Below are positions 2,798-64,000 of a stretch of DNA of 64,000 nucleotides, in pieces. The first letter of the stretch is position 1, and the number at the start of each line of letters is the position of its first letter. The stretch lies in assembly GCA_027262695.1 (NCBI GenBank), contig GCA_027262695.1_4722.1, one strand, 5' to 3'. Below the pieces are notes generated by a model. That model was given only the letters and a program-made list of their open reading frames with translations, did no database searches and was not told where the DNA came from. Origin of the DNA: a phage. Made by a program: the position numbers and the translations under genes.

Positions 2798-5059
2798 TTA
2801 CAATTCGAAATCTTCATCGATAACGCGTTGGGTTAGCACCTTGTCGCTGAAGAACTCCACCTTACGTTGATGGTATTTCCGATGTGCTTCAATCGACGTA
2901 CACACCAGATACCAGAACGTGGGTGTCATACCCTCGAACTTCCCTTTCAGCTGACGTAGTCGACCTAACACCTGAATGTTACCAGTTCTCGACCCCATCG
3001 CTAACGTCATGAACGTCATCACCAAGTCAGGAAGATCGATTCCTGTACCAGCCGATTTCACCGTTGTCACACTGATATCATTATCCAGTAACACCATGAA
3101 ATCTTCTTCAGCGGTATAAGGACCTATCTCCAACTCAGGGATACGTTCACTTAAGTAATGCGATAACGACTTGCACATATCAACGGTTGCACAATACACC
3201 AACATCTTCATGCCTTCCTGATATTGGTTCATGAAACCTTTGATAATAACCGTATAGATAAAGTTGAAATAGGCGAGTTTGAGTTGCTTATTCTTCATGA
3301 TAGACTGTTCGAATACCGTGTGAGAATAAGAACCTCCAAAGCCTTTGTATCGGACTTTATCCGTACTGCGTAGTCGATACGTCACCGCATTTACCGCGAT
3401 GTATTTCTTGTATTCACATTTCGCATAACGTGCTTCTTTCGGATACATCAAATACAGCATCCGCTCGATGAACGGATCGTCAGACACCGCCGTTGCCGAC
3501 AGATAAATGATTTCCGGAATATTCGCGTAACACTTCACTTTGAACAAGAAATGCAGAGCTTCGTGACATTCATCGTGGATTAACAATCCAATGCCTGTTT
3601 TCTCCCAGAACTCGACTGGATGGAAAACATAAGGTGCGACACAGTTGTTCTTTTCATAATCGGTTATATAACGCTGAAACATGTTCAGTGAGAATAACGC
3701 AATTTTGAAATCCAACTCACCTTGTTCTACCAGCGTCTGAAATTCCAACATGCTGTAACGAGGAATGTCGGGATGCGGTGGGTCAGACTGGGCTGTACCA
3801 CGTATCTCGATAACATCACCTGGTTCCATACCGAAGAAACTTAGCAGTGAGCTACGCCATCCAGGCATGTACCTCGGTGACAGAATGATGCCCGTCCGTA
3901 CACCACGTCGGAAGGTGATCTCCTGCGACATTGCGGTGTTGTGCGTGACGATATGGTCTTTAATAACATAAAGGCTTTCGTCGTTGTCCACCGTGATGCA
4001 ACGTGCCTTCGCTTTCACCGTCGGCACGATGCCGCCAATCGCTAAACCAGGAAGCGTGTTAACGGGAAGATCATCTGGAATCTCAATGCCGTCAGGAATA
4101 AGCTTAAGCAAATCGGAATGGTAAATTAATGTCTCCATCGTGTAACTATTGATGGGGCATTTATACGCGATTCCCCCTAACCGATAAGCCAACTCCCAGA
4201 CCTCGGTCATTATCTGCGAATCGGTGGTTCTGACCGCAAGGTGAGCCCACCCTTCTTCAACACGCAGTACGCAACGATCTTTGATGAGTTCTCTGAAACG
4301 ATCAAGACCCACGAGTTCTTTCGGTTCGTAAAGTCGGATTCTTACCGGACGAGATCGTGACGATCTGTCATTAAGACGTTCCATGATTTCACTCGTGCTG
4401 AGCACCTTGTCAGGATCCGTGCATTGCCAGAGATGATCACCACACGCTTCAACCATTCGTCCATCTTCAAAGAAGACAGCGTAAAGCTGAATATCGTCAT
4501 GATCAAAGATAGCAGTTACGTTCGTCGGTAAACCATCCGCGCCGATGACCTCATCACCCACCTGGAGCTCACCAATCGGCTTCCAACCGCTTGGAACCTT
4601 AACGGGTGTATGGAGAGCCAATGCTTTCCCAGACCCCGTGCCTGCGGTGTTTAGGCTCATTCTGAAAGGGGTATCCTTACCCCCATCCATGTACTCCAAC
4701 CATTCTTGCTGATCTTCACGCCACGGAAACTTCCAGTTCTTCACAAACTCCACTTCCTTACCTGGAACCGGATCGTGGTAAACGATTTCCAACCACTCCT
4801 TTCGAATTCCTCGAGAAAAGATAAAATCCAAAAACGACTTCAGCTGTTCACGAAGTAAGTAGACCTCGCTATAATCGCTTCTTGCTGCGGCGTAGGTGTT
4901 GATGGTATCGGTGACCATTCTCCGTGTACGAGGGTCGCGTCGTTTCCGTAGATGCAAACAACGGTCTCGAAGGTAATGGCCAATCAAATGGGCAAATCGA
5001 AGTCCGTATCCGCTCAGCTTCATGCCATGCGAGAAGACGTCGATACGAGCTAACTTCAT
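2798..5059 (-). CDS. SF2 DExH-box helicase precursor containing an intein
   Basis: Walker A 'AGTGSGK' followed after a 229 aa insertion by 'T'; motif II 'LLIHDECHEA', motif III 'LSAT', motif VI-like 'QVLGRLRQ'. The Arg-rich N-terminal 47 aa look non-coding-like, so the true start may be the internal Met near 4918. Confidence 0.75.
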   Translation of the reverse strand: MKLARIDVFSHGMKLSGYGLRFAHLIGHYLRDRCLHLRKRRDPRTRRMVTDTINTYAAARSDYSEVYLLREQLKSFLDFIFSRGIRKEWLEIVYHDPVPGKEVEFVKNWKFPWREDQQEWLEYMDGGKDTPFRMSLNTAGTGSGKALALHTPVKVPSGWKPIGELQVGDEVIGADGLPTNVTAIFDHDDIQLYAVFFEDGRMVEACGDHLWQCTDPDKVLSTSEIMERLNDRSSRSRPVRIRLYEPKELVGLDRFRELIKDRCVLRVEEGWAHLAVRTTDSQIMTEVWELAYRLGGIAYKCPINSYTMETLIYHSDLLKLIPDGIEIPDDLPVNTLPGLAIGGIVPTVKAKARCITVDNDESLYVIKDHIVTHNTAMSQEITFRRGVRTGIILSPRYMPGWRSSLLSFFGMEPGDVIEIRGTAQSDPPHPDIPRYSMLEFQTLVEQGELDFKIALFSLNMFQRYITDYEKNNCVAPYVFHPVEFWEKTGIGLLIHDECHEALHFLFKVKCYANIPEIIYLSATAVSDDPFIERMLYLMYPKEARYAKCEYKKYIAVNAVTYRLRSTDKVRYKGFGGSYSHTVFEQSIMKNKQLKLAYFNFIYTVIIKGFMNQYQEGMKMLVYCATVDMCKSLSHYLSERIPELEIGPYTAEEDFMVLLDNDISVTTVKSAGTGIDLPDLVMTFMTLAMGSRTGNIQVLGRLRQLKGKFEGMTPTFWYLVCTSIEAHRKYHQRKVEFFSDKVLTQRVIDEDFEL
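3938..4624 (-). mobile_element. Intein (229 aa, class-3-like: Ala1, block B Trp, block F Cys, block G Thr-His-Asn, +1 Thr) in the helicase P-loop
   Basis: Insertion lies exactly between Lys and Thr of GSGK|T. N-terminal block A-like 'ALALHTPV...GEL', block B-like 'EACGDHLW', block F-like 'ARCITVDNDESLYV', C-terminal 'IVTHN' then Thr. Removing it restores a canonical 'GTGSGKT' P-loop. No endonuclease-sized domain is evident. Confidence 0.6.
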
Positions 5060-8660: not shown

Positions 8661-9098
8661 TCAGAAAGGAGTACGGTTCTTATATTCGAATAGTGTCTGG
8701 AGGACGCATCGCGTTAACGCGTTTTGTAATTCGATACGTCCTTGTTCCCCTAACAGATCCAACACCATCATCCCTTTTGCTGTTTTCTCTGCCACTTCTT
8801 CACAAATCCGTAAATTGTACACATCATCGTCGTCAAGCTCCTTACGACGGTCAGAGCTGAAACGCATCAGCTCACCTTGACTATCACGAACATCAGCGAA
8901 TGCTTCATAGGCTGCATCAATGTTCGCAGAACGCGTCAAACCCTCCGCTTCGCGCCATTCTCGGTATGTACCATCAAGCGTTTGTTCCTCGCCTGAGGTT
9001 GTTGATTCACTGTTGGTGGTTGGGCGAATTAAATGGGGTGTTATCATCGCTATTACGCTATCGTAATGCTCCATCGTATACCTCGTTAGCTTTCGCAA
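8661..9098 (-). CDS. hypothetical protein (145 aa)
   Basis: ORF on the dominant strand; overlaps the upstream gene end by 13 nt. Confidence 0.5.
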   Translation of the reverse strand: MRKLTRYTMEHYDSVIAMITPHLIRPTTNSESTTSGEEQTLDGTYREWREAEGLTRSANIDAAYEAFADVRDSQGELMRFSSDRRKELDDDDVYNLRICEEVAEKTAKGMMVLDLLGEQGRIELQNALTRCVLQTLFEYKNRTPF

Positions 9099-11254
9099 TC
9101 ATCAGCATCGATGATCTGACCACCAGCAACGTTCAACTGATGATACAGAATCCTCAACGCACGGTTACCCCCAATGGGATACTTCTCGAAGTTGGTCGCA
9201 ATCGGAATCGCAGAGGGTTTGTCGGTTGCATAGATGCTTTCCGTGATGCTATCCACCTGTTTCGGGTTGTTCGCGTAATCCATGAATACGCTTGCGAACC
9301 ATCCACCGGCAAAGGCGGTGACTTCGCGATGCTCGGATTCACCACAATAACGTGTCGGTTGCTCTTTACCCGGCGAACTGTACTTATCACTGTTGCTGAG
9401 TTTCGACGGCAAACCGTGTGCTTGCAGTTTAGGAATACCCACCGCAGACCAATCGTTCGCTGTCTTCTCCAACATCATGATGTATGTATCACCAATCGCA
9501 ATATCGTTCTTGGTGGTTCGCCATTGGCCAGAACGTCCACGATAGCGTACTGGACCTTTCTTCAACGGGAACTCTCGGATTAGGTTCTCCATACGTTCCG
9601 AACCTGCTGCGATACTGTCTGTCGGAATATAGACTTCCGTACCGTGGCGTTGTACGTAACGGAGATGATCCCATTTATCTTCGTCTGTGATACAGTGCTT
9701 CTCAACAACCTGTTCCACAAACTCAGGACTAACAATATAGTAGTAACGCATCAATGTGTTCCATGCGGTTTCCAGATCGCCTGCATCCATTACTGGTTTC
9801 AGTTCACGCATAATCTGATCACCAACACCGTTGATATAAGGTGCGTTAACACGGCTTAAACTCATCCTTTTAATTACCGTGCTGTCGTCGAACATAAAGT
9901 CCGCGACATTCCCCCATTGGTCTACGGGCATCTCGTCATCTTCCATGATATCCGTTACGACGAATTTATCACCTGCCATACCGGTAAATTTAAATCCGAT
10001 ACCCGGGACTACATCGTAGGTATACGTGATAGTCACACGCCAGTCGTCAAGATTCTCCTTACGGTAATCACGGGTTGGCAACACATGACGTAGCTGACCG
10101 TTCGGATTGCGAATATCGATACCGTGCTCAGCATCAGCGAGGTTCAACCACCACATCACCGTCTGATGATGTCTGATGGGTGTACCAGCACGTTCACGTT
10201 CGTATTTACGCACCGCATCCTGAATACGGGTATACAGCAGACCGATGGCGTTCTCATATTTCAGGAATTGACGATACGGCGGACGCATCTTCTCTTCCAT
10301 CATAATCGCACGCTCACGGGCTTGACGTCCAGAACGACGATGGCGATCACTAACCACATCGATATCCGTCACACGCGCATTCGGTTCTGCGTAGGTAAGG
10401 TCATCGTAAACGTAGTCGACACGCTGCAGGTTGCAGGTCATCATGTCGACGACGCTCAGAATCGGATCGATTTCACGGGTTGCTGCTAACAGACCATCTT
10501 TACGAATACGTTCACCGTTCTCCGGGATTGCCTGATAGACCTCATCGTCGCCGTAGAGATTAATCGGATACCTCGACTTACCTGACGTGATCGTCCGTTT
10601 CTCGATACCGGTACTGGTGAAGTGTTTCAGTACGCCACGACGGGCAACACCCCCATCCTCAATACATTGATAGAAACTCCCAAAACACACCTTGCAATCA
10701 CGTCCGTAGCCCCACTCACGCGTTTCTTGATTGATCGCCGGGCTTTCCATCAAACGAGAGTATCGAGGTACGATCTGGCCTCGACGAAGGGAATGGAACA
10801 AATTGGTGGGTCGAAAACGGAAACCGTACTGCTGATGCATGATGTGATGCTCGGGCACTTCAAGCAAGCGCAGCTCATGGCGGTTACCATCTTCTTGGTT
10901 TTCATACAGCACGTAATGCATCGTGTTTGTCTTGATGCTATTCGCGGTATGCCCAGGTTGAAAACGTGGGATGATATCTATGACGCGAGATTCAACGGGG
11001 AATTCTACCGACCATGTATTCTGACCATACTGGTATTCAATCCCCGTCGTTAATCGGGACGGCTTCGCATCTTTGATAACCAACGCTTGGCTAAGATGTC
11101 CACCAAACATCGCAGCGCGCTGTGCTGAGTTATAATGCAATAGCCCGTTAAGTCCAGTCCCTACACCCGTATACTCCTGTTTAATGGGAATGATTTTACC
11201 TTCAGCGATTGCCTGCTTCACAGATTCATAAAGAGGTTTTTCTTTATAATGCAT
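9086..11254 (-). CDS. Multisubunit RNA polymerase beta subunit, C-terminal fragment
   Basis: 'NSAQRAAMFGGHLSQALV' (cf. [16 protein letters not shown]), 'KFTGMAGDKFVVTDIMEDDEMPVDQWGNVADFMFD' (cf. [36 protein letters not shown]), 'RYCGESEHREVTAFAGG' (cf. RFGEMEVWALEAYGA). Start trimmed to the ATG at 11252-11254, preceded by a GGAAG RBS; the track start at 11419 would overlap a divergent plus-strand gene. Confidence 0.7.
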   Translation of the reverse strand: MHYKEKPLYESVKQAIAEGKIIPIKQEYTGVGTGLNGLLHYNSAQRAAMFGGHLSQALVIKDAKPSRLTTGIEYQYGQNTWSVEFPVESRVIDIIPRFQPGHTANSIKTNTMHYVLYENQEDGNRHELRLLEVPEHHIMHQQYGFRFRPTNLFHSLRRGQIVPRYSRLMESPAINQETREWGYGRDCKVCFGSFYQCIEDGGVARRGVLKHFTSTGIEKRTITSGKSRYPINLYGDDEVYQAIPENGERIRKDGLLAATREIDPILSVVDMMTCNLQRVDYVYDDLTYAEPNARVTDIDVVSDRHRRSGRQARERAIMMEEKMRPPYRQFLKYENAIGLLYTRIQDAVRKYERERAGTPIRHHQTVMWWLNLADAEHGIDIRNPNGQLRHVLPTRDYRKENLDDWRVTITYTYDVVPGIGFKFTGMAGDKFVVTDIMEDDEMPVDQWGNVADFMFDDSTVIKRMSLSRVNAPYINGVGDQIMRELKPVMDAGDLETAWNTLMRYYYIVSPEFVEQVVEKHCITDEDKWDHLRYVQRHGTEVYIPTDSIAAGSERMENLIREFPLKKGPVRYRGRSGQWRTTKNDIAIGDTYIMMLEKTANDWSAVGIPKLQAHGLPSKLSNSDKYSSPGKEQPTRYCGESEHREVTAFAGGWFASVFMDYANNPKQVDSITESIYATDKPSAIPIATNFEKYPIGGNRALRILYHQLNVAGGQIIDADDCES

Positions 11255-11285
11255 AGGACTTCCTATTATCGAATTGAGGTACGTC

Positions 11286-11639
11286 ATGTCTAATACGCCC
11301 CTGAACGACTTCCTTAAAACAAACCCAGAAGACCTCATCCACAACCTTGATTTCAGGAACGTTGTTGAGATGCATCTGGAATATTTCAAAAATGCCGGTT
11401 TGGTTTCTACGATAGACATACCACCCGAACGCGCCTACGAATTCGATGGTAACTTTTATGGATTATGTCGGGTTATGCTTGGCGAAGGCAGTGAACCTAT
11501 GCACTGGGTTACCCTAAGAATCAACGGTTATCGTGATCCTACGGAATACACCGCCGATGTCCTAACGATGAAGATTGTCGATTCAAGCGCCATCAACACG
11601 TTAAAACAGCAATATCGCACAATCCACTACAGCGCTTAA
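11286..11639 (+). CDS. hypothetical protein (117 aa)
   Basis: Plus-strand ORF with a GAGGT RBS and its own downstream hairpin terminator at 11645-11673; divergent from the RNAP beta gene. Confidence 0.45.
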   Translation: MSNTPLNDFLKTNPEDLIHNLDFRNVVEMHLEYFKNAGLVSTIDIPPERAYEFDGNFYGLCRVMLGEGSEPMHWVTLRINGYRDPTEYTADVLTMKIVDSSAINTLKQQYRTIHYSA

Positions 11640-20404: not shown

Positions 20405-20857
20405 TTATTTTCGGTTGAGCGCTGCCAGCGTTTCGTAATCAGGCATGTGCCCCAATTGAAGATCAACAGGAACAGATGTTTGTGCCGCTGGTCCGTGGAA
20501 TATTCGTTTATGCATATCGATATACCCGCATTCCAAACAAACAACATCAGCCAATTCCGACGGGTGATGTGGCGGGTCAATCCGTAAACGTTTATAATAT
20601 TCCAACTGCCACCAGGCATGGAAATAGTTGTTGTATGCTGCTGACTTCTGGTTCGCGCATTTAAGTCCGTAAAGCACCCAAAGCTCAGCCATGAATTTCT
20701 TCATGTTTTCAATCGCGGGTACATCAGGTTTCATCACGGTAGAAATAAAAAGCAACGGTGAGTTATTATCACCAAAACAACCTTGTAGTGTATTACCAAA
20801 ACGTTCAATATCCAGGCAAAGATACTCGCTTGATTTACCCTCAAAATGAACCGTCAT
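20405..20857 (-). CDS. hypothetical protein (150 aa)
   Basis: ORF on the dominant strand. Confidence 0.5.
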   Translation of the reverse strand: MTVHFEGKSSEYLCLDIERFGNTLQGCFGDNNSPLLFISTVMKPDVPAIENMKKFMAELWVLYGLKCANQKSAAYNNYFHAWWQLEYYKRLRIDPPHHPSELADVVCLECGYIDMHKRIFHGPAAQTSVPVDLQLGHMPDYETLAALNRK

Positions 20858-23118: not shown

Positions 23119-23356
23119 TTAGCATTGGTTATTGATTGCTTCTATTTCATCGATATACGGTTCTACGTCATCGCCCTCCACGAATTCGTTGAACCAACAG
23201 TCAATCGTTGAGATAACCGGTGACTGATGTTCACATTTCTTAGATACCTTAAACGGAACGTTGTTATCCATCATACCGAGTTCGGGTCGGAATCGCCCGA
23301 AATGTTTCGCAGTCCAAATGTCTGGGACGATATGGTTGTTCATAGCGTCTCCGTCG
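23119..23356 (-). CDS. RNAP beta-prime N-terminal subunit, downstream exon (boundary approximate)
   Basis: The frame upstream of the annotated Met reads 'SDGDAMNNHIVPDIW...GMMDNNVPF', matching beta-prime 'DGDQMAVHVPL...LMMSTNNILSP' immediately after NADFDGD. The 5' boundary depends on the 3' splice site (candidates 23356-23370). Confidence 0.55.
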
Positions 23357-24248
23357 CTGTTTGTCGACTATATCTTCATCTTCATTGCGAAGAGACTCTC
23401 GTTTGGGTTTGTGTTTAACAAAGCCTACTCTACTCAACATCGCGTCTTTCGATAGTCTGTGAGCACACATCTTAACGAATATTCGTGGGTTCCTACAGAC
23501 AGGTGAATATTCTTGTTGAGATGCTTCGCTGCGGATTATTCCCGTCCTACCTCTTTTACCATACCCAGTTCATTACGCTGGCCCTCATCGATGTCACCAT
23601 GATGAGTTGGTGTGTAGTCCGATTACAGAAACTTCCCGTCAATTAGAGAGTTTTAACTATGCTCCTGTTACCAGGAACCAGATCCCGACGGTATCAATAA
23701 ATCAACGTAAGTTATTGATTTAATTGAAAAAACTGAAATCTGCATTATCTTAATCTTCGATATGGTTCGCTAAGCCATATCCGCACATACGTGCAGCTTA
23801 CGTCTTTCACGTAAGAAGAGACTATATCTTTCACCCTCAGCTTTACCTGTTAGGGGCTCCCATTTCGGCGGTCGTTTGACCGGTGGTTTCCCACGCCGCT
23901 TGGCCCTAACGCCCGTGAGCGATAGTCGTTGAGCACATCTCCGTTCTGGAGACTTCGCTGCGGATTCCTCAATCCTTACTGCTTTTACCGTACCTGAATG
24001 ATTAGTTCAGCCCCACGCTCTGTTCCCAGGCATGGTTGGTGAGCAAGGCTCTAAGTAGGTTCCCGCTATTAGAGAGTTCCTCGTGACAGCATTACTGTGT
24101 CACTGGGCCTAATGACCCTTTCAAGATCATCACGCTTAACCCGATGGTGTTATCCTGCGGGTCGCGTTTAACCTTGGTGATTTCAAGACATTGGTTACTG
24201 CTACGGTCAAGTGATGGATTTCGAACAAAGCCACACACAATCCCATCG
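23357..24248 (-). ncRNA. Two tandem ORF-less group I intron cores inside the beta-prime N-terminal gene (boundaries approximate)
   Basis: Minus-strand elements for core 1: P AATAGCGGGAA (24060-24070), Q AATCCGCAGC (23957-23966), R GCTCAACGACTATC (23921-23934), S AAGATATAGTC (23820-23830). Core 2: P AATTGACGGGAAG (23632-23644), Q AATCCGCAGC (23528-23537), R GCTCACAGACTATC (23451-23464), S AAGATATAGTC (23366-23376). Stops in all frames; no ORF over 70 aa. Confidence 0.65.
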
Positions 24249-25449: not shown

Positions 25450-27348
25450 TTAGAACAGGTTGAATGCCCCGCCCATGCCGTTACCGCCCACATTCGGACG
25501 ATCGTTACGTGCGTAGATGTTGCCGCTGATGGTACCCAGACCGCGAGCACGTGCTGCCATGTTACCACGAACAGCGGTGCCTGCCAGATGCTGGATGTTC
25601 TCAGGACGGATGGTGAAGCCTGCTTCAGCAGCCGCTTCAATCAGTGCCTGCAACGCCAGCGGATCGAAATCATAACGCATCGCCCAGCCGGTTTGTTCCC
25701 AGCTACCAGACAGAACGCGGTCGATGATTTCGTGACGAGCAACCACACGCTGAGACATCGACATATCGGTACGGTCGAAGCTGTCTTCCCAAGCTTCTAC
25801 GGTATCCGGGTTGGTGATGTTCATCATGTACAGATCGTCCATATCACGAATATCGTGACGGTTACCGTCCTGGTGGTTGTAGTGACCCAGCGGGATACGG
25901 TTACCGGTCGCGTAGACCAGCGGTGAGCCGTACGGATATTTCTTGCTGAAGCAACCCAGGGTAACATCATCGAACGCACGGAAGAGGGCTTTGTAGCCTT
26001 CGGAGTATTCCTGTACGTCCCCTTCAACATTACCCGAGAAGATCTTCTCAGCCGCCGGGATCATACGCAGCAGCCAGCTGTACTCGCCTTCTTCTGGTAC
26101 ATCGATAGAGATCAGCAGAGACGGATACAGAACCTGTTGCAGGAACTTGTAAATCTGCTCGTTGGTTTGCGTAGACAGATCCAGCGGTGCAGTCACTTCA
26201 GGATCCAGCACCATCGCCAGAGCACCTGGGTTATGCGGACCAATACCACGAGCCGCGTTGCTGATTAAAGACTGTGCCCATGCCATGCCGCTGTTCAGCG
26301 TAGCGATGGTACCAATCAGACCCAGCACGAAGCTGTTCGGCGTGAACGCATCCAGTTCCAGCGGATACATGCTGGTCATTACGTAGCGCGGCTGGTACTG
26401 AACAGTTGGCGGTACCGGATAACCGTTAACCAGAACAGGACCTTGCTGGAAGGTCGGGTTCTGCGGGCTGTAGGTCAGATCGATATAACCGGTGGATGCA
26501 ACCAGACGCTGCTGGCTATCGTAATCGCCCATCGCTTGACGGATGCGGTTAGAGATAGTTACAGTAATGTCGGAGCGTACCGGGTTACCCGCGATATCAC
26601 TGTCCTGCATGCCGCTGGTGTTATACTGAACGCTGCTGATCGGCTGGTCGCTTGCCATCATACCCAGGTTGAACTGAGGCAGGCCCAGTCTGTCAGCAAA
26701 ACGCATTTCGGTTGCCGTCTGGATCGCGTTATCTGCTGCAGACAGCAGGGTGGTTGCCAGATGCGCAGATTCAGCAGTGATTTCATTGGTCACAACAGCC
26801 AGACCAGCGATACGTACCGTACCGTTGGCTTTACCACCGATAGCCGCATACATCGCTGCCATGACTTCGTTGATGAACGTGCCGTTCAGGTTATCCACCC
26901 AAGTACATGGTACCAGGATGTTACCGTGAGGACCACGTTCTTCACGACGTGGCAGCGGAGCCAGGCCAGCAACCAGCGGAAGGACGTAACCGAAGAAGTG
27001 GTTATGATCGCCCACTTTTACACCGCTCATCACAACCAGGGTCGGATACGGTACGCTGTACTGGTTCGGGTCAACCGCAACAAAGATGAAGTCGTCTTTG
27101 AACTGGGTATCTTCCAGATATTTCTCCATCAGACGACGGAGATTCAGTACCTGCTCGGAGCCGGTATTACGGCTGATACGACGGCTCAGTGTACGGTTGA
27201 TCGTACGCATCGTATGAGTTACTTTAGGACGGTCAGCAAAATCTGCAGCGGTTTCGACCGCTTCGTTAGCGCGCTGCGCCGCGCGGGTTTCAGCTACGCG
27301 GATGTCTACGTTATCGTTACCGTTATTGTTACGTACGTCTAAGCCCAT
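25450..27348 (-). CDS. chmA: candidate chimallin (phage nucleus shell protein) / abundant 632 aa protein
   Basis: The 632 aa size matches known chimallins; the gene lies immediately upstream of the beta-prime N-terminal gene (the gp54-gp55 arrangement of phiKZ as I recall it) and within about 8 kb of PhuZ. It has an AAGAGGA RBS and the conserved 11-mer upstream. No alignment was performed. Confidence 0.45.
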   Translation of the reverse strand: MGLDVRNNNGNDNVDIRVAETRAAQRANEAVETAADFADRPKVTHTMRTINRTLSRRISRNTGSEQVLNLRRLMEKYLEDTQFKDDFIFVAVDPNQYSVPYPTLVVMSGVKVGDHNHFFGYVLPLVAGLAPLPRREERGPHGNILVPCTWVDNLNGTFINEVMAAMYAAIGGKANGTVRIAGLAVVTNEITAESAHLATTLLSAADNAIQTATEMRFADRLGLPQFNLGMMASDQPISSVQYNTSGMQDSDIAGNPVRSDITVTISNRIRQAMGDYDSQQRLVASTGYIDLTYSPQNPTFQQGPVLVNGYPVPPTVQYQPRYVMTSMYPLELDAFTPNSFVLGLIGTIATLNSGMAWAQSLISNAARGIGPHNPGALAMVLDPEVTAPLDLSTQTNEQIYKFLQQVLYPSLLISIDVPEEGEYSWLLRMIPAAEKIFSGNVEGDVQEYSEGYKALFRAFDDVTLGCFSKKYPYGSPLVYATGNRIPLGHYNHQDGNRHDIRDMDDLYMMNITNPDTVEAWEDSFDRTDMSMSQRVVARHEIIDRVLSGSWEQTGWAMRYDFDPLALQALIEAAAEAGFTIRPENIQHLAGTAVRGNMAARARGLGTISGNIYARNDRPNVGGNGMGGAFNLF

Positions 27349-34984: not shown

Positions 34985-35041
34985 AAACTCTCCTACACGG
35001 CATAAAAGCCTGCCCCGAAGGACAGGCTCATCATGATACTT

Positions 35042-35239
35042 TTAACCTTCCATCTTCAATGAGGGATGGTTGACGATATGTGCATGTTTGGTTGGGTCGT
35101 ACGACTGATAAGGGAAATAGCCATGCCATTGACGGCCTTGACATTTCGTACACAGGAACTGACCATCACGGCGTTGATGCTCGTAGGCCAGTTCAGTGCT
35201 ATCAACGTGACCGCAACGTTCGCAGATAAACAGCGACAT
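35042..35239 (-). CDS. small zinc-ribbon protein (65 aa)
   Basis: Two CxxC pairs: 'CERCGH ... CTKCQG'. Confidence 0.45.
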   Translation of the reverse strand: MSLFICERCGHVDSTELAYEHQRRDGQFLCTKCQGRQWHGYFPYQSYDPTKHAHIVNHPSLKMEG

Positions 35240-35255
35240 AGCGCATCTCCATGGA

Positions 35256-36236
35256 TTAGAAAAGCAAGAAACCGCTGTTCTTCGCTTCCGCTACGGTTTC
35301 ATCACCCACCTTCGGTGCTTGTTGACGTGCGTTACGATGTTCAACAAAACGTTTTGCTTCGTCCGCGATTTGTTTGATAATACCCCCTAAACGATCGGTG
35401 CTTAATACGAACGATGTCGCTTCACGAATCGGGCTGCTTTCCGGCACAAAACCATCACAGCTATAAATAGCATTAACACCCATGACTTTCGTCGCGTCTT
35501 TCGGATACAACGTACAGAAAGCAATCGGGCTATCATGCTCTTTGGTCCACTCGTATCCCATGAACGTGTTCAATTCGGTGATGGTCGGTTCCAAACCGGT
35601 AACACGAGGATGGTTTAAGAAGTTCTCCAGATCAGCGCTATCCAAGCGACGGTTCTCACCAGAGAACAACACACAGAGTTGGCTGATAACGATCTGGACA
35701 TCCAGGTTAACGTCTTGCTCTGATTTTCCGTTTTCGCCATTCATGTGGTAGCTGACAATCACAGGACGTTTCAACCCTTCTGCGGCTGCCATCAGTCCTT
35801 TGAACGTACGGTCAGCATTGATGGTCTGACGTTCATCGTCAAAGGAGGCAACGATACAGCAAACAACACGCTCACCGCGTTCCAGCAGGTTAGCGACCAG
35901 CGCAGGGCCTGCAACGGAACCCGAACCACCGCTTAAGCTGAAGACGACGATGTTGAATTTACCTGGCGTATGCTTATTAAGAATACCTGGGATTTGTGAG
36001 CAGATCAGTTCAGCATTCTCATCGCGTTTCTTACCGGAACCATCAAGCTCGCGGCCTGCTGCATCTTTAAAGATGTAAATGTGATCATCGTCCAGTGCGC
36101 TATCACGTAGGTTAGCACGGCTGGTATCAACATACGTCATGCTGTGTAATCCTTTCGCGACTTCGCCTTCAAATGCTGAGCCGATTTCGCCACCACAACC
36201 ACCAACCGCCCAAATATGTACTTGGTTCTCTTGCAT
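35256..36236 (-). CDS. phuZ: PhuZ-like phage tubulin
   Basis: Tubulin-type GTP-binding loops 'AVGGCGGEIG' and 'FSLSGGSGSVAGP' (cf. PhuZ 'YSLGGGSGSVLGP'); 326 aa matches PhuZ size; AGGAG RBS. Confidence 0.75.
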   Translation of the reverse strand: MQENQVHIWAVGGCGGEIGSAFEGEVAKGLHSMTYVDTSRANLRDSALDDDHIYIFKDAAGRELDGSGKKRDENAELICSQIPGILNKHTPGKFNIVVFSLSGGSGSVAGPALVANLLERGERVVCCIVASFDDERQTINADRTFKGLMAAAEGLKRPVIVSYHMNGENGKSEQDVNLDVQIVISQLCVLFSGENRRLDSADLENFLNHPRVTGLEPTITELNTFMGYEWTKEHDSPIAFCTLYPKDATKVMGVNAIYSCDGFVPESSPIREATSFVLSTDRLGGIIKQIADEAKRFVEHRNARQQAPKVGDETVAEAKNSGFLLF

Positions 36237-36300
36237 GTGAACTCCTAACTTGATATGTATTTAACGCACAATGAATCTTTCTTTACTAAAGGGGTGACCC

Positions 36301-37143
36301 ATGGGTGCTATTGACTACAGTGTCGATCGTATCTGCCGTACAATACCGGCAGATATTCTACAGTATTGCTATATCGATCGTTACGATTGGCGTAACCGCT
36401 ATCCGCGTTCCGTTGAAGATATCATTACCGATTGGGTAATCCGTAAACGGGTTATCGGGGACATCGACATCTACGGGGGACTACAAACCGTTATCCCTCT
36501 TGATGATGCAGGCGTTACGATTGAAGAAGTCACCATTAACTGTTATGTTTTCCATATTCCGCTGGAAGCGACACAGGGACGTTACATCACGTCAGCCTTG
36601 TCGATTATCTCCGGAAGCGTGAATAACTACGGAATCAACTATAACGGTCAATGGGGGGCGTTCAACCAAACCCAGTTCCAACGTCAACTTTGCGGATGGA
36701 ACCCCGCAAGCAACGCATTGCAACAAGGAATGAATGCATTCGGTCCTGTGAACATCCTCAGTACCGCTAACGTTGACATCATCGCACCTAACACCATCAT
36801 GGTGAACAACGTCACACCGGTTCAATTCCCGTTGAGCTTACGCTGTTTCCTTGCCCATGATCCAGAACTAACCAACCTCAGCATGGAAGTCTGGAACGAC
36901 TTTTACAAGCTCTGTTTATACGCCACACAAAGTGACATCTATAACAGAACCGTTATTCGTCTCGATCGTGGTGTTACCGCACAAGGTCAAGAAGTCGGTG
37001 CATTCAAGGAATACATCGATCGCTTCGCTGATGCGGAAAACACCTACCAGGAATTCCTGAACGAGACGTGGGCAGGCGTTGCTGCATGGAACGACCCACA
37101 AACGAAACGTCGGGCAATACGTCTGCAAACCGGTTACTTCTAA
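36301..37143 (+). CDS. hypothetical protein (280 aa)
   Basis: Plus-strand ORF divergent from phuZ, with an RBS-like AAAGGGG upstream. Confidence 0.5.
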   Translation: MGAIDYSVDRICRTIPADILQYCYIDRYDWRNRYPRSVEDIITDWVIRKRVIGDIDIYGGLQTVIPLDDAGVTIEEVTINCYVFHIPLEATQGRYITSALSIISGSVNNYGINYNGQWGAFNQTQFQRQLCGWNPASNALQQGMNAFGPVNILSTANVDIIAPNTIMVNNVTPVQFPLSLRCFLAHDPELTNLSMEVWNDFYKLCLYATQSDIYNRTVIRLDRGVTAQGQEVGAFKEYIDRFADAENTYQEFLNETWAGVAAWNDPQTKRRAIRLQTGYF

Positions 37144-37146
37144 AGA

Positions 37147-37668
37147 CTATGCCGCCTTTTCCAACAATGTTGGTTGAGGCGGTTGTTGTTTGAAAACCAC
37201 CATCATATCAGCAAACATCGCAGCCACAGTCCCTACGGACGTCGCTAACTGAATGCTCAATTCGACATCAGGTGGAAGACAATCAAAATGAACACCGTAT
37301 TGCGTATGTGTCTGTTCAACAACGATACGGGGAACGATCTTGCTCTTAACCGCATCGGTCATGAACAAACGTAAGAACGTTTCACCGTCTTCGCTATCCG
37401 TAAAGCGATACGCGTTACCAGAAAACTCGACGCTTGGCGTAACGATAAACTGCACGCGATCGTCAGTCGGATGGATATTTAGCCACCGTGCAACATCGTC
37501 CGTGTTAACGTTACGCATACTCAGCACGGTATACGCAAACAACGTATCATGGTGTTTAGAATAATGCAGTACATAAGCCGCATCTTTCTTTTTGTGAACC
37601 CCTTCATTGTATTCTATTGTCGTGTAGCCTGATTTATATAGCTTTACTTGCGGTTTCTCGCTCATCAT
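37147..37668 (-). CDS. hypothetical protein (about 173 aa)
   Basis: Start trimmed to the Met at 37666-37668, which forms an ATGA overlap with the stop of the upstream gene. Confidence 0.45.
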   Translation of the reverse strand: MMSEKPQVKLYKSGYTTIEYNEGVHKKKDAAYVLHYSKHHDTLFAYTVLSMRNVNTDDVARWLNIHPTDDRVQFIVTPSVEFSGNAYRFTDSEDGETFLRLFMTDAVKSKIVPRIVVEQTHTQYGVHFDCLPPDVELSIQLATSVGTVAAMFADMMVVFKQQPPQPTLLEKAA

Positions 37669-61550: not shown

Positions 61551-62696
61551 TTATTTGGCTTCGTTAAAATAAATATCAACGGCACGTTCCGTTGCGTAGA
61601 GAAGACCCAGATTCACGGTCCCTACCACTTCCGGTGAACCGATGATACGGTTAGCGATACTGGTGCCACTGAAGATAGCATCAAGGGTGTGCCCGTCTTC
61701 GGTTTTGTTCACACCATGACCCACGGAAGAGACAACGGATTTTGCCTGTGCTGCGAAGGTACCTTTATCCCCCATTCCCGCACCCAGGTCGTAACGCATG
61801 AAAATACGGATGGCGATCTGGTTCTCGCCTAACGGATTACCGTCTATTCTCACGTTACTGTTGTTGATGCGTCCCGTTGTTGCTTCGTTGAGTTTCAGTT
61901 CCTTAACGCGTTTAGCTCGCGCTTTATCCGCTTCACCCACAAGTGCTGCCATGGTTTCACTCATGTCTTCAATCTGGGCACGATACAACACATCGATCTG
62001 TACGACTTCACCATGCACGTCAGCCCGTGGGTTATACTGACTCATACGGCGTAACGCTTCAACCGCTTCCTGACTTTCATCGCTCAGATCGGTCGCAATC
62101 GGTTCTTCCAGTGTTGCCAGGATCGTCCGAGGTTCAACATGATCGCCGATTTTCACCAAACCACGAATGTTGAGATGAGCGTCAACAATGAGCGTACGAC
62201 TCTTAATCGATGGTGTTACGAGACGATCAGCGAGATTGTCGAAGATATACGAACTGTCCTCGTGCGTTTCTGGAATATCCAAAATACCAACCAAAGACAG
62301 AACGCCTGCGCGCCAAACCACCTGACCTGGGTTCCACCAATCCCGTTTGAAATAAAGACGATGGAATACCACTACATCCTGATCCTTAACGCGATCACCA
62401 ACTTTATAATCGGTAATGAGATCGTGAGGATAATACTTACCTGGTCCTTTCCCGATTATCGTACCGAGTTGGAAAACCTCTTCCCCTAATTCTGGATCGT
62501 CGTATTGTATCGTAAGCGCTGTTTTGGTGACCTTCTTCACAACACCATCGCCTTGAGCAGCTGCTGCGAAGAGTTTACCAACACGATGCGCGATAACAGT
62601 CTCACCACCTGTACGCCATGGTTGTACGTCGTAACCTTCAGCAGCTATCATGCGGTTGTGCTGTATACCTATAAATACGAGACGCTTTGGCGAAAT
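61551..62696 (-). CDS. RNAP beta subunit fragment, downstream exon (5' boundary approximate)
   Basis: The frame opened upstream of the annotated Met reads 'RLVFIGIQHNRMIAAEGYDVQPW' (cf. beta '[25 protein letters not shown]'); also 'HEDSSYIF' (cf. NFEDSI) and 'GAGMGDKGTFAAQA' (cf. [13 protein letters not shown]). Confidence 0.55.
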   Translation of the reverse strand: MSPKRLVFIGIQHNRMIAAEGYDVQPWRTGGETVIAHRVGKLFAAAAQGDGVVKKVTKTALTIQYDDPELGEEVFQLGTIIGKGPGKYYPHDLITDYKVGDRVKDQDVVVFHRLYFKRDWWNPGQVVWRAGVLSLVGILDIPETHEDSSYIFDNLADRLVTPSIKSRTLIVDAHLNIRGLVKIGDHVEPRTILATLEEPIATDLSDESQEAVEALRRMSQYNPRADVHGEVVQIDVLYRAQIEDMSETMAALVGEADKARAKRVKELKLNEATTGRINNSNVRIDGNPLGENQIAIRIFMRYDLGAGMGDKGTFAAQAKSVVSSVGHGVNKTEDGHTLDAIFSGTSIANRIIGSPEVVGTVNLGLLYATERAVDIYFNEAK

Positions 62697-63208
62697 CCAG
62701 CAAAATACAATTACTGTGCGTCTAGATTGTTCAGATAAGGTCGTTAATCTTATCCCGGTGGTGATGATAGGTGCATCACCAACCCGCTTGCGCTCTCACG
62801 CAAGAGCAGACTATATCACATCTCGTTTCAAACGGTGCTTCTTCAGCGCCTCAACGAGAGTTCACTTCTTCCCAGCGCATCCAGCGCCATTCTCTTATCC
62901 AAGGAGAATGCCTCACTCGAGGGGTACAGGGGGATGAATCCCTTAGTCGTTGAACCGTCACCCTAGAACGTTTCACAACGATCCTTAGGCGATTGGCTGC
63001 GGATTGTCCTTAAGCTATTATCTGTTTTATAACCATACCGTCTTTCTTTTCAGAATCCGTTTTGGTCGATAACAGCGATGGATGTCTTCGCAATTCAGTG
63101 AATCTCATCTACATGTCGCCATATAGACGGACCCTGCTATTAAAAGCGTTAATCATCTCTGTCGGCAGCAGGTACTGCAAGTGCCGATGTACTCATTATT
63201 GACGAGCT
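62697..63208 (-). ncRNA. ORF-less group I intron in the RNAP beta gene (boundaries approximate)
   Basis: Minus-strand P AATAGCAGGGT (63131-63141), Q AATCCGCAGC (62996-63005), R GGTTCAACGACTAAGG (62941-62956), S GATATAGTC (62809-62817), then three P9-like hairpins (CTTGCG/CGCAAG, GGTGATG/CATCACC, GATAAG/CTTATC). It separates two in-frame beta segments. Confidence 0.6.
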
Positions 63209-64000
63209 ACCATCCGTTTTCTCGTCGTAAGGTTTTGTTTCACCGTATACAGACACGATGTTTGCGTTAGGTGCAAGATAAGCAGAGATACCTACATCGC
63301 CACTGTCCTTCGTACCTTCAGATACCACACCGATGTCTGACTTGTCGTATTCACGATCGCGTGCGCGTCGAAGCGATGTTTTCGAACGACCCCCGATACC
63401 GGTCATCGTTGCTTCTTCACCCTGCTTGATATCCAACATCGGGTTGGTTTCATCGATGACAATAGAAGCACTGTCGTCAAGGATTTGGTTCCAAACGCTC
63501 ACCGGACTGATTGAGATCTTCTGTCGGTTGCCTTGGCTGCTGTTCTCGTTTTGACGAATAGCACCAACCAGATCCTTATACACCAACTCAGCGAACTTAT
63601 CGTACGTTTTGAAGCGCTGGTAGTTCACATCGTTCGTGTTCGGTGCCCAATCATCCAGAAGCAGTTCAACAGCACGTAATAACAACATGGCGAAATCAGT
63701 CGGTTCACCCATGTTCTGCAATAATGTACGACTTACCGGGTCGACGAAAAGACGCTCCATGAGTTCAAGTTCGCGAAGATGACGAACCTTAAGACCTGCA
63801 CCATCGACAACGTTAAAATAGATATCCCGATTGTCAAAAGCGCCGCGAGCGTAACCGATGTAATTACGGTATTCGTTAAATCCACCCAACAACAATGTCG
63901 TCATTCGATCATCTTTACTGAAGATCAAACTTTCATCGTCGAAGCTTACCGCGAATTCATCCGATGCTAAGCCCATACGAGAACCACGAACTACCGTACG
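63209..64000 (-). CDS. RNAP beta subunit fragment, upstream exon (5'-partial; continues beyond the window)
   Basis: 'GIGGRSKTSLRRARDREYDKSDIGVVSEGTKDSGDVGISAYLAPNANIVSVYGETKPYDEKTDG' aligns with E. coli beta '[64 protein letters not shown]'. The frame is open to nt 64000; after 'KTDG' it runs into the intron and stops at 63149. Confidence 0.6.

What the first reader, a model, noticed from the sequence alone, without database searches (positions are those of the whole stretch)
35256..36236. PhuZ-like tubulin
The 326 aa protein carries tubulin GTP-binding loops ('AVGGCGGEIG', 'FSLSGGSGSVAGP') closely matching the PhuZ family, which centres the phage nucleus in phiKZ-like phages. It supports the jumbo-phage assignment of the whole window.
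Basis: partly seen in the sequence, partly recalled or inferred. Interest (0 to 1): 0.6.

Follow-up and report, generated by a model that had tools for sequence, protein, structure and literature searches.

The report
Goslar-type phage tubulin PhuZ gene
This gene encodes the tubulin-like filament protein PhuZ of a jumbo phage closely related to E. coli phage Goslar; it is 98% identical to a protein whose structure and cellular role (spinning the phage "nucleus") are already published, so the finding is correct but ordinary.

Summary
The ORF at 35256-36236 (-) encodes 326 aa and carries both quoted motifs. It is a PhuZ-family phage tubulin: PHROG 'tubulin PhuZ' E=2e-68, and PDB 9pm9 'PhuZ Tubulin from phage Goslar' E=6.5e-217. 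An AF2 model matches 9pm9 at TM 0.91 and the phiKZ and 201phi2-1 PhuZ structures at about 0.8. The whole window is collinear with Escherichia phage Goslar at 85-88% nucleotide identity and encodes chimallin 8 kb away, so it comes from a nucleus-forming jumbo phage (Chimalliviridae, Goslarvirus). The protein is 97.9% identical to Goslar gp234 (7 substitutions, dN/dS 0.02). All nucleotide-binding and catalytic residues (T1, T3 and T4 loops, N140, N166, T7 D199/D202) and the C-terminal polymerisation tail are kept. The exact sequence is already public on 36 contigs from E. coli, Shigella and other assemblies, labelled 'hypothetical protein'. One correction to the implied function: Goslar PhuZ does not centre the nucleus. 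It forms a vortex of filaments that rotates it, and D202A blocks this. The gene is followed by a 65-aa zinc-ribbon ORF and then a terminator. That ORF also sits beside PhuZ in several related phages, but it persists in one phage that has no detectable PhuZ. Verdict: already known, low interest.

The parts
35256..36236 (-). phuZ coding sequence (326 aa plus stop), orthologue of Goslar gp234
   Evidence: ORF. PHROG 'tubulin PhuZ' E=2e-68. PDB 9pm9 E=6.5e-217. 97.9% aa identity to Goslar gp234, dN/dS 0.020. AF2 model TM 0.91 to 9pm9.
36180..36209 (-). T1 (phosphate-binding) loop region, residues 10-19 AVGGCGGEIG
   Evidence: Motif located. G12, G13 and G15 are nearly invariant in a 24-sequence PhuZ alignment.
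35904..35942 (-). T4 tubulin signature loop, residues 99-111 FSLSGGSGSVAGP
   Evidence: Motif located. G103, G104 and V108 are invariant. S105, G106, S107 and P111 are at least 90% conserved.
35631..35645 (-). T7 (synergy/catalytic) loop, residues 198-202 LDSAD, with D199 and D202
   Evidence: D199 and D202 are invariant in the alignment. They align with 'RLDVHDV' of PhuZ201. Goslar D202A abolishes vortex formation and nucleus rotation (PMC9891218).
35259..35318 (-). C-terminal tail, residues 307-326 (APKVGDETVAEAKNSGFLLF): an acidic stretch followed by G plus hydrophobic residues
   Evidence: G322 is nearly invariant and a terminal hydrophobic motif is present in all 24 homologues. The layout matches the phiKZ tail ...LDVDDQATSSGLVFD. 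In phiKZ and 201phi2-1 this tail ('acidic knuckle') binds the neighbouring subunit and buries about 1000 A2 (PMC3678025). It has low pLDDT in the monomer model, as expected for a segment that orders only in the filament.
36242..36246 (-). Shine-Dalgarno sequence AGGAG, 5 nt before the ATG
   Evidence: Read directly from the sequence. Identical in Goslar.
36237..36300 (.). 64-bp divergent intergenic region between phuZ (-) and the adaptor gene (+); presumed promoter region
   Evidence: 61 of 64 bases are identical to Goslar, against about 87-89% in the flanking coding sequence. The binomial probability is P=0.026, which is only suggestive. No promoter was identified: the sigma-70 scan did no better than shuffled sequence, and it is not appropriate for phage-encoded RNA polymerases.
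35042..35239 (-). 65-aa CxxC...CxxC zinc-ribbon ORF (Goslar gp235 orthologue), starting 16 nt after the phuZ stop; probably co-transcribed
   Evidence: ORF. 86% identical to Goslar gp235, dN/dS 0.12. Only weak zinc-ribbon Pfam hits. Homologues lie directly downstream of PhuZ in L008, L010, LucasX and RTH11.
35001..35035 (-). Intrinsic terminator hairpin (GAGCCUGUCC-UUCG-GGGCAGGCUU followed by UUUAU) that ends the phuZ/zinc-ribbon unit
   Evidence: dG -20.7 kcal/mol, z=-3.5, and 0 of 200 shuffles fold as well. The core is identical to the Goslar sequence annotated there as a terminator.
36301..37143 (+). Divergent neighbour: DUF7484, the portal-neck adaptor protein (Goslar gp233 orthologue). 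Syntenic context, not a cytoskeletal component.
   Evidence: Pfam DUF7484 at 291.8 bits. 98.9% identical to gp233. gp233 was modelled as the adaptor in the Goslar virion cryo-EM structure (bioRxiv 10.64898/2026.04.21.720040). It lies near PhuZ in every lineage examined.
25450..27348 (-). Chimallin (nuclear shell protein, Goslar gp246 orthologue): builds the structure that PhuZ filaments act on
   Evidence: Pfam Chimallin_Phikzvirus at 90.5 bits against a cutoff of 27. PHROG 'nuclear shell protein' E=1.4e-53. 93.5% identical to Goslar gp246.

Best explanation
The gene encodes the PhuZ tubulin of a Goslarvirus, a nucleus-forming jumbo phage of Enterobacteriaceae in the family Chimalliviridae. 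PhuZ monomers bind GTP through the T1-T6 loops. They polymerise head to tail, so that the T7 loop of one subunit (D199/D202) completes the GTPase site of the next. The C-terminal tail lies along the neighbouring subunit and stabilises the filament. GTP hydrolysis makes the filaments dynamic. In Goslar-type infections these filaments form a vortex around the chimallin-shelled phage nucleus and extend radially to the cell membrane. Their growth pushes the nucleus into rotation, which is thought to spread capsid docking and DNA packaging over the shell. They do not hold the nucleus at midcell. Shown here: the protein's family, its fold, intact catalytic and polymerisation motifs, strong purifying selection, its genomic context with chimallin, and the transcription-unit anatomy. 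Shown elsewhere for the 98%-identical Goslar protein: filament and vortex formation, the D202A dominant-negative effect on rotation, and a cryo-EM structure. Inferred: that this 7-substitution variant behaves the same way.
For: Family and fold: PHROG 4733 E=2e-68. PDB hits are 9pm9/9pmk E=6.5e-217, phiKZ 3zbp E=2.6e-29 and PhuZ201 E=6e-15. The AF2 model has pLDDT 86.3. Foldseek gives 9pm9 'PhuZ Tubulin from phage Goslar' TM 0.91, phiKZ 0.81, PhuZ201 0.80, and FtsZ/CetZ/TubZ lower. Orthology: the window is collinear with Goslar. The protein is 97.9% identical to gp234, and the 7 substitutions (A47T, D49G, I182V, H234N, N255S, F297Y, V298I) are conservative or lie at alignment-variable positions (residues 47 and 49 flank an indel-rich stretch); none touches an invariant column. 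Selection: dN/dS is 0.020 against a window median of 0.031. Six other contigs encode the identical protein with 4-23 nucleotide differences, all synonymous. Motifs: D37-T38-S39, G66/G68/R71, G103-G104, N140, N166 and D199/D202 are invariant across 24 homologues of 24-99% identity. Function of the orthologue: vortex, rotation, D202A and no centring (PMC9891218; review PMC13282480). Tail mechanism: PMC3678025. Partner structure: chimallin is encoded at 25450-27348.
Against: No experiment exists for this exact variant. The phage is known only from sequence: contigs in bacterial assemblies and metagenomes. The generic Pfam Tubulin score falls just below its gathering threshold, and Pfam TubZ_C_2 (PF22334) is not hit, although many homologues do hit it. 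In the Goslar clade the residues just before the tail glycine are K-N-S rather than acidic, so details of the tail contact may differ from PhuZ201. I could not place the 7 substitutions on the filament interfaces of 9pmk.
Confidence: 0.9

Rival explanations
1. It acts as a classical Pseudomonas-phage-type PhuZ: a bipolar spindle of dynamically unstable filaments anchored at the cell poles that pushes the phage nucleus to midcell and holds it there. This is the function the first reader cited.
For: It belongs to the same family and fold as PhuZ201 and phiKZ PhuZ, with TM about 0.8. It has the same catalytic aspartates and the same kind of tail. Centring is the family's textbook role (PMC12931631 introduction).
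Against: In the 98%-identical Goslar protein, the nucleus is not enriched at midcell, and the D202A mutant that stops rotation leaves positioning unchanged. The filaments form a vortex, not a spindle (PMC9891218; PMC13282480). Identity to the spindle-forming PhuZs is only 22-28%.
Confidence: 0.07
2. It is a TubZ-type DNA-segregation motor (type III partition system) that moves phage or plasmid DNA through a TubR adaptor bound to a tubC centromere, as in Bacillus pXO1/pBtoxis plasmids and Clostridium phage c-st.
For: TubZ structures are recovered by the fold search: c-st TubZ at TM 0.63-0.65 and B. thuringiensis TubZ at 0.56-0.60. The phiKZ protein was originally named TubZ (PMC3678025).
Against: Identity to TubZ is only 11-14%, well below the PhuZ hits. 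No TubR-like gene or centromere repeat is adjacent; the neighbours are a virion adaptor protein and a 65-aa zinc ribbon. The phage encodes chimallin and belongs to a lytic, nucleus-forming lineage.
Confidence: 0.02
3. It is a decaying or non-functional tubulin relic. PhuZ is dispensable and has been lost repeatedly in Chimalliviridae, so this copy might be on its way out.
For: PhuZ is described as non-essential and is absent from several chimallin-encoding lineages (PMC12768965; PMC13282480). One very close relative, P0001/L016, carries G106A/S107A in the signature loop.
Against: dN/dS is 0.020, comparable to the DNA polymerase at 0.019 and lower than chimallin at 0.089. The ORF is full-length with every catalytic residue intact. 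Identical protein is encoded on multiple contigs that differ only by synonymous changes. The Goslar orthologue is demonstrably active.
Confidence: 0.01

Closest known systems
PhuZ of Escherichia phage vB_EcoM_Goslar (gp234, YP_009820885.1; PDB 9pm9/9pmk)
   Same: Same length (326 aa) and 97.9% identical. Same genomic position and neighbours, the same ribosome-binding site, a near-identical upstream region and an identical downstream terminator core. All catalytic residues are kept, including D202, the residue mutated in the published dominant-negative.
   Different: There are seven substitutions (A47T, D49G, I182V, H234N, N255S, F297Y, V298I). Nucleotide identity is 89%. The spacer before the downstream zinc-ribbon ORF is 20 nt shorter. 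The host phage is a different Goslarvirus species at about 87% genome identity, with different intron and intein content.
PhuZ (TubZ) of Pseudomonas phage phiKZ, gp039 (PDB 3zbp/3zbq)
   Same: Tubulin/FtsZ fold with TM 0.78-0.81. It has T1-T7 loops and a C-terminal tail with an acidic stretch followed by S-S-G-L-V-F, against N-S-G-F-L-L-F here. It is encoded in a chimallin phage and has a DUF7484 adaptor gene nearby.
   Different: Only about 27-31% identity. phiKZ-type filaments form a spindle that centres the nucleus, whereas the Goslar type forms a vortex. phiKZ has no zinc-ribbon companion gene downstream; its gp040 is a phosphatase-family protein.
PhuZ of Pseudomonas phage 201phi2-1, gp059 (PDB 3r4v/3rb8/3j5v)
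   Same: Same fold (TM 0.78-0.80). The catalytic pair D187/D190 aligns with D199/D202. Polymerisation depends on the tail.
   Different: 22-23% identity, and the sequence match covers only residues 65-300. It is the founding example of midcell centring by dynamic instability, a role not seen for the Goslar type.
TubZ (plasmid/prophage type III partition), CetZ, FtsZ and eukaryotic tubulin
   Same: They share the GTPase and activation-domain fold and the GGxGxG signature (Pfam Tubulin E=6.9e-7).
   Different: 11-16% identity and TM 0.5-0.7. The partners differ (TubR/tubC; the membrane tethers of FtsZ), as do the biological roles.

Membership tests
PhuZ (phage tubulin of Chimalliviridae) | Significant full-length match to a PhuZ-specific sequence profile | tested here: met
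   PHROG 4733 'tubulin PhuZ' E=2.1e-68, residues 1-323 against profile positions 1-321 of 323.
PhuZ (phage tubulin of Chimalliviridae) | Tubulin/FtsZ two-domain fold that is closest to solved PhuZ structures | tested here: met
   AF2 model with pLDDT 86.3 and pTM 0.86. The top Foldseek hits are 9pm9 (TM 0.91), 3zbq (0.81) and 3rb8 (0.80), all PhuZ and all ahead of CetZ, TubZ and FtsZ.
PhuZ (phage tubulin of Chimalliviridae) | Intact GTP-binding loops: T1 GGxG, T3 GxGxxR, T4 signature SGGSGS, T5 and T6 Asn | tested here: met
   G12/G13/G15, G66/G68/R71, G103/G104/G106/S107, N140 and N166 are all present and invariant or nearly invariant in 24 homologues.
PhuZ (phage tubulin of Chimalliviridae) | T7-loop catalytic aspartates (DxxD) that activate hydrolysis in the adjacent subunit | tested here: met
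   D199 and D202 are present and invariant. They align to the corresponding residues in PhuZ201. Goslar D202A is dominant-negative (PMC9891218).
PhuZ (phage tubulin of Chimalliviridae) | Extended C-terminal tail (acidic stretch plus conserved Gly-hydrophobic end) that mediates inter-subunit contact | tested here: met
   The tail 307-326 contains D312, E313 and E317 and ends in G322-F-L-L-F. G322 is at least 90% conserved and the layout matches the phiKZ tail. A minor variation is that the residues just before the glycine are not acidic. The contact itself was not modelled here.
PhuZ (phage tubulin of Chimalliviridae) | Encoded by a chimallin-encoding (nucleus-forming) jumbo phage | tested here: met
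   Chimallin lies at 25450-27348 (Pfam 90.5 bits against a cutoff of 27). The window is collinear with Goslar. The contigs that carry this gene reach 248 kb.
PhuZ (phage tubulin of Chimalliviridae) | GTP-dependent polymerisation into dynamic filaments in vitro and in infected cells | not testable with these tools
   Shown only for the 98%-identical Goslar protein (PMC9891218). Testing it here needs biochemistry or microscopy.
Pfam Tubulin/FtsZ GTPase domain (PF00091) | Score at or above the curated gathering threshold (33 bits) | tested here: not met
   30.2 bits, E=6.9e-7, residues 9-151. The match is significant but falls just under the curated cutoff. Relatives P0002-P0015 do carry a precomputed PF00091 hit. 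This reflects how far PhuZ has diverged from the model, not absence of the domain, since the fold test is met.
TubZ type III partition system | Adjacent TubR DNA-binding adaptor gene and tubC centromere repeats | tested here: not met
   The neighbours are a virion adaptor protein (DUF7484), a 65-aa zinc-ribbon ORF and hypothetical proteins, none matching any TubR-like family. Identity to TubZ structures is 11-14%. Centromere-like repeats were not specifically searched for.

The most novel reading that the evidence does not exclude
The 65-aa CxxC...CxxC zinc-ribbon protein encoded 16 nt downstream of phuZ, ahead of a shared terminator, could be an undescribed PhuZ accessory factor, for example a nucleator, a capper or a shell or membrane anchor. 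It could help to explain why Goslar-type filaments form a vortex rather than a spindle. The gene sits directly downstream of PhuZ in Goslar-like phages with 55-98% PhuZ identity and in Xanthomonas phages LucasX and RTH11 with 34% PhuZ identity. No PhuZ partner protein is mentioned in the papers read here.
Probability: 0.08. Interest if true: 0.5.

Novelty: already known. Interest (0 to 1): 0.12.

Why it matters
It matters little beyond correct annotation. The gene confirms that the window comes from a nucleus-forming jumbo phage of the Goslarvirus lineage. That lineage was recently shown to be widespread as unintegrated contigs in E. coli, Shigella and Salmonella assemblies (PMC12768965). The exact protein is deposited many times as 'hypothetical protein', because no NCBIfam model covers PhuZ and the Pfam Tubulin model falls just short of its cutoff. 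A PhuZ-specific model would fix dozens of records. PhuZ is often described as dispensable, yet within Goslarviruses it evolves under constraint as tight as the DNA polymerase and tighter than chimallin. That argues that the rotation function has real fitness value in this lineage.

Tried and rejected
- NCBIfam scan of the protein: no family matched.
- Megablast of 5 kb around the gene against all complete E. coli genomes: no match. The phage is therefore not in finished E. coli assemblies. It appears only in draft assemblies and metagenomes.
- Sigma-70 promoter and terminator scan: the counts were indistinguishable from shuffled sequence, and the scan missed the real hairpin because its T-run rule was not satisfied. 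I folded the hairpin directly instead.
- Pfam TubZ_C_2 (PF22334), which many homologues hit, was not detected in this protein even at E<=1.
I repeated it with an allowed alignment.
- The primary PhuZ201 paper (PMC3401054) is not held. The tail and 'acidic knuckle' mechanism was taken from the phiKZ structure paper instead.
- No paper in the held library describes PDB 9pm9/9pmk itself. The only citing text uses it as a benchmark.
- I considered whether the divergent neighbour DUF7484 might be a cytoskeletal partner. I rejected this because it is the virion portal-neck adaptor.
- I considered the zinc-ribbon ORF as an obligate PhuZ partner. This is weakened because Xoo-sp14 keeps the ORF at the same locus with no detectable PhuZ, and pEa_SNUABM_54 has it about 69 kb from PhuZ.
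- I considered Avs5 sensing of PhuZ because a paper co-mentions them. The paper mentions PhuZ only in its introduction.
Full report
OBSERVATION. 'AVGGCGGEIG' begins at residue 10 and 'FSLSGGSGSVAGP' at residue 99. An AGGAG ribosome-binding site lies 5 nt upstream of the ATG.

WHAT IT IS. Four independent lines identify the protein as a PhuZ-family phage tubulin.
- Profile: PHROG 4733 'tubulin PhuZ' matches end to end at E=2.1e-68. The generic Pfam Tubulin/FtsZ GTPase model matches residues 9-151 at E=6.9e-7 but scores 30.2 bits, just under its 33-bit gathering cutoff. No NCBIfam model matches.
- Solved structures by sequence: PDB 9pm9/9pmk at E=6.5e-217, phiKZ gp039 (3zbp/3zbq) at 2.6e-29, and PhuZ of 201phi2-1 (3r4v/3rb8/3j5v) at about 6e-15.
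- Fold: an AlphaFold2 model built from a 24-sequence alignment has pLDDT 86.3 and pTM 0.86. Its best Foldseek hits in the PDB are 9pm9, described as 'PhuZ Tubulin from phage Goslar (locally refined monomer)' and released 2025-12-24 (TM 0.91, 98% identity). Next come phiKZ (TM 0.81) and 201phi2-1 PhuZ (TM 0.80). CetZ, phage c-st TubZ, FtsZ and eukaryotic tubulin follow only at TM 0.5-0.7 and 11-16% identity.
- Residues: in an alignment of 24 homologues at 24-99% identity, the invariant columns are D37-T38-S39, N42, G66/G68/R71 (T3), G103/G104/V108 (T4 signature), N140, Y163, N166, D199, D202 (T7) and G262. The nearly invariant columns are G12/G13/G15 (T1), S105/G106/S107 and the tail glycine G322. 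The window protein has all of them.

WHERE IT COMES FROM. The whole window is collinear with Escherichia phage vB_EcoM_Goslar (NC_048170, roughly 145.1-209.2 kb) at 85-88% nucleotide identity, and no other phage record matches. The ORF corresponds to Goslar gp234, annotated 'tubulin PhuZ'. Chimallin, the nuclear-shell protein that defines Chimalliviridae, is encoded at 25450-27348 (-), with Pfam Chimallin at 90.5 bits against a cutoff of 27 and PHROG 'nuclear shell protein' at E=1.4e-53. The exact 326-aa sequence is already public. It sits on 36 contigs, the longest 248,055 bp, under accessions such as EIP0347798.1, and is named 'hypothetical protein' from E. coli O157 and Shigella sonnei. Its 90% cluster has 111 members, including Goslar's protein and Salmonella and Shigella flexneri entries. 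This matches the Goslarvirus expansion from 1 genome to 237 (38 species, about 248 kb) found as unintegrated phage contigs in bacterial assemblies (PMC12768965). No complete E. coli genome contains the region.

CONSERVATION. Against Goslar gp234 there are 105 nucleotide differences in 981 (89.3% identity), 92 of them at third codon positions, but only 7 amino-acid changes: A47T, D49G, I182V, H234N, N255S, F297Y and V298I. This gives dS 0.65, dN 0.013 and dN/dS 0.020. None of the seven falls on an invariant column; 47 and 49 lie beside an indel-rich, variable stretch of the alignment, and the others are conservative exchanges. Across 61 orthologous gene pairs in the window, the median amino-acid identity is 94.8% and the median dN/dS is 0.031. 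PhuZ (97.9%, 0.020) is constrained like the DNA polymerase (0.019) and more tightly than chimallin (0.089). Six further contigs encode the identical protein while differing from the window by 4-23 nucleotides, every one synonymous. The gene is clearly functional and under strong purifying selection.

LOCAL ANATOMY. phuZ is separated by a 64-bp divergent intergenic region from a plus-strand gene at 36301-37143. That region is 61/64 identical to Goslar (P about 0.03, suggestive only). The plus-strand gene is DUF7484 (291.8 bits), the orthologue of Goslar gp233, which the Goslar virion cryo-EM study models as the dodecameric portal-neck adaptor resembling T4 gp13. It is a structural gene, not a cytoskeletal partner. 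Even so, the PhuZ/DUF7484 neighbourhood is old. It is kept in relatives with 60%, 55% and about 30% PhuZ identity (L010, L008, L009), in Xanthomonas phages LucasX and RTH11, in Pseudomonas phage DT01, and in looser form in phiKZ as gp042.

Sixteen nucleotides after the phuZ stop codon begins a 65-aa ORF (35042-35239) with a CxxC...CxxC zinc-ribbon pattern and a WHGYF motif. It is 86% identical to Goslar gp235, with dN/dS 0.12 and only weak Pfam zinc-ribbon hits. It is followed by a strong hairpin at 35001-35035 (dG -20.7 kcal/mol, z -3.5). The hairpin core is identical to the sequence annotated as a terminator in Goslar. phuZ and the zinc-ribbon ORF therefore look like one bicistronic unit; this is inferred, not shown.

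The zinc-ribbon gene is directly downstream of PhuZ in L008 and L010 (59% and 44% identity), in LucasX, whose LUCX_44 is a PhuZ at 34% identity and E=2e-42, and in RTH11. It is five genes away in DT01 and about 69 kb away in pEa_SNUABM_54. It is missing next to PhuZ in L009 and phiKZ. In Xoo-sp14 it is present at the same locus although that phage has no detectable PhuZ. The linkage is real but not obligate.

HOW IT MOST LIKELY WORKS. The mechanism follows from established tubulin/FtsZ biochemistry and the PhuZ literature. GTP is bound by the T1-T6 loops. Longitudinal assembly inserts the T7 loop aspartates (here D199 and D202) into the nucleotide pocket of the adjacent subunit, which triggers hydrolysis and hence filament dynamics. 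[quoted passage not shown] In the phiKZ and 201phi2-1 structures this 'acidic knuckle' contact buries about 1000 A2 and is involved in polymerisation (PMC3678025). The window's tail is laid out like the phiKZ tail...LDVDDQATSSGLVFD.

For the 98%-identical Goslar protein, Birkholz et al. showed the following (PMC9891218; summarised in PMC13282480):
- GFP-PhuZ forms a vortex of filaments that wraps the phage nucleus and projects to the membrane.
- The handedness of the vortex matches the direction of nucleus rotation.
- D202A polymerises at much lower expression, fails to form a vortex, and cuts the share of rotating nuclei from about 97% to 29%.
- Nucleus position is not at midcell and is unaffected by D202A.

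I therefore assign this gene the same role: GTP-driven filament growth against the membrane rotates the chimallin shell, probably to distribute capsid docking. It does not centre the nucleus. The family, motifs, fold and selection are shown here. The cellular behaviour is inferred from the orthologue.

RIVALS.
- A TubZ-type DNA partition motor is not supported. There is no TubR-like neighbour, and identity to TubZ is 11-14% (about 0.02).
- A decaying relic is excluded by the selection data (about 0.01).

COMPARISON AND NOVELTY. This is the orthologue of a structurally and cell-biologically characterised protein, in a phage lineage already described, and the exact sequence is already deposited. 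It is already known. The only correction is that the family's textbook function, centring, does not apply to the Goslar branch. The least ordinary thing nearby is the co-transcribed zinc-ribbon ORF, which might be an accessory factor. I put that at about 8%, given that it persists in a phage without PhuZ.

SIDE OBSERVATIONS.
- The helicase gene (gp164 orthologue, 2798-5059) carries an in-frame 227-aa insertion at 3941-4621, immediately after the Walker A GTGSGK and ending ...VTHN|T. It passes the NCBIfam intein C-terminal splicing model (18.2 bits against 15.6) and has weak Hint hits at its N-terminus. It is therefore probably an intein, starting with Ala, that Goslar lacks.
- The gp207-like RNA polymerase subunit gene is interrupted at 62688-63151 by a 464-nt ORF-less insert that matches Rfam group I intron RF00028 (51 bits against a gathering score of 50). 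Goslar's copy is uninterrupted.
- Goslar's HNH endonuclease gp186, which lies next to its annotated group I intron, is absent here. The window keeps 388 nt that are 92% identical to that intron region and has about 370 nt of extra sequence.
- The cluster representative P0001 (contig SKEV01001409.1) differs from the window's phuZ by only three nucleotides, all non-synonymous: H7N, G106A and S107A. The last two fall in the near-invariant signature loop. These are 3 of only 5 mismatches over 3.7 kb. This is either a sequencing artefact or a natural GTP-site mutant.

Noticed in passing
window 3941-4621 (-), inside the helicase ORF 2798-5059: There is an in-frame 227-aa insertion relative to Goslar gp164. 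It sits directly after the Walker A motif GTGSGK, begins ALALHTPVKV... and ends ...VTHN followed by Thr. It passes the NCBIfam intein C-terminal splicing model (TIGR01443, 18.2 bits against 15.6) and has weak Hint-domain hits at its N-terminus. It is probably an Ala1 intein that Goslar lacks.
   Followed up: partly
window 62688-63151 (-); Rfam hit at 62787-63153: A group I intron (RF00028, 51 bits against a gathering score of 50) of about 464 nt, without an ORF, splits the orthologue of Goslar gp207 ('RNA polymerase beta subunit') into ORFs 61551-62651 and 63149-63976. Goslar's gene is continuous at this point.
   Followed up: partly
window 23346-24116: The Goslar HNH endonuclease gp186 (about 1 kb) beside Goslar's annotated group I intron has no counterpart here. 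The window keeps 388 nt that are 92% identical to the Goslar intron region (23361-23748), followed by about 370 nt with no Goslar match. Rfam at gathering threshold did not call an intron here.
   Followed up: partly
window 35042-35239 (-): A 65-aa CxxC...CxxC zinc-ribbon ORF with a WHGYF motif is probably co-transcribed with phuZ. It is directly downstream of PhuZ in Goslar-like contigs and in Xanthomonas phages LucasX and RTH11. It is also present in Xoo-sp14, which has no detectable PhuZ. Its function is unknown.
   Followed up: yes
L016 1501-2481 (NCBI GCA_008917205.1, contig SKEV01001409.1); protein P0001: A near-identical phage contig (99.87% over 3.7 kb) carries three non-synonymous changes in phuZ: H7N, G106A and S107A. 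Two of them destroy the near-invariant GGSGS signature loop, and the three account for 3 of the 5 mismatches in the region. This is either a sequencing error or a natural GTP-binding-site mutant.
   Followed up: partly
window 36301-37143 (+) and loci L008, L009, L010, L011, L014, L015, L017, L018: The portal-neck adaptor gene (DUF7484, Goslar gp233) lies next to or within about 2 kb of PhuZ in every Chimalliviridae lineage examined, including phiKZ (gp042). It usually lies on the opposite strand. It stays at the locus in Xoo-sp14, where PhuZ is missing.
   Followed up: yes
window 3-1445 (+), 8664-9074 (-), 20414-20851 (-), 37153-37668 (-): Four genes are far more diverged from Goslar than the roughly 95% median: the gp161 BspA-like LRR protein at 60.6%, gp170 at 55.5%, gp181 at 53.4% and gp232 at 67.6% amino-acid identity. 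They are candidates for host-interaction or arms-race genes.
   Followed up: no
window 9086-11419 (-): The ORF for the gp171-like RNA polymerase subunit runs to 777 aa from the first possible start, against 722 aa annotated in Goslar. The Goslar match spans only 9089-11254, so the true start is probably internal.
   Followed up: no
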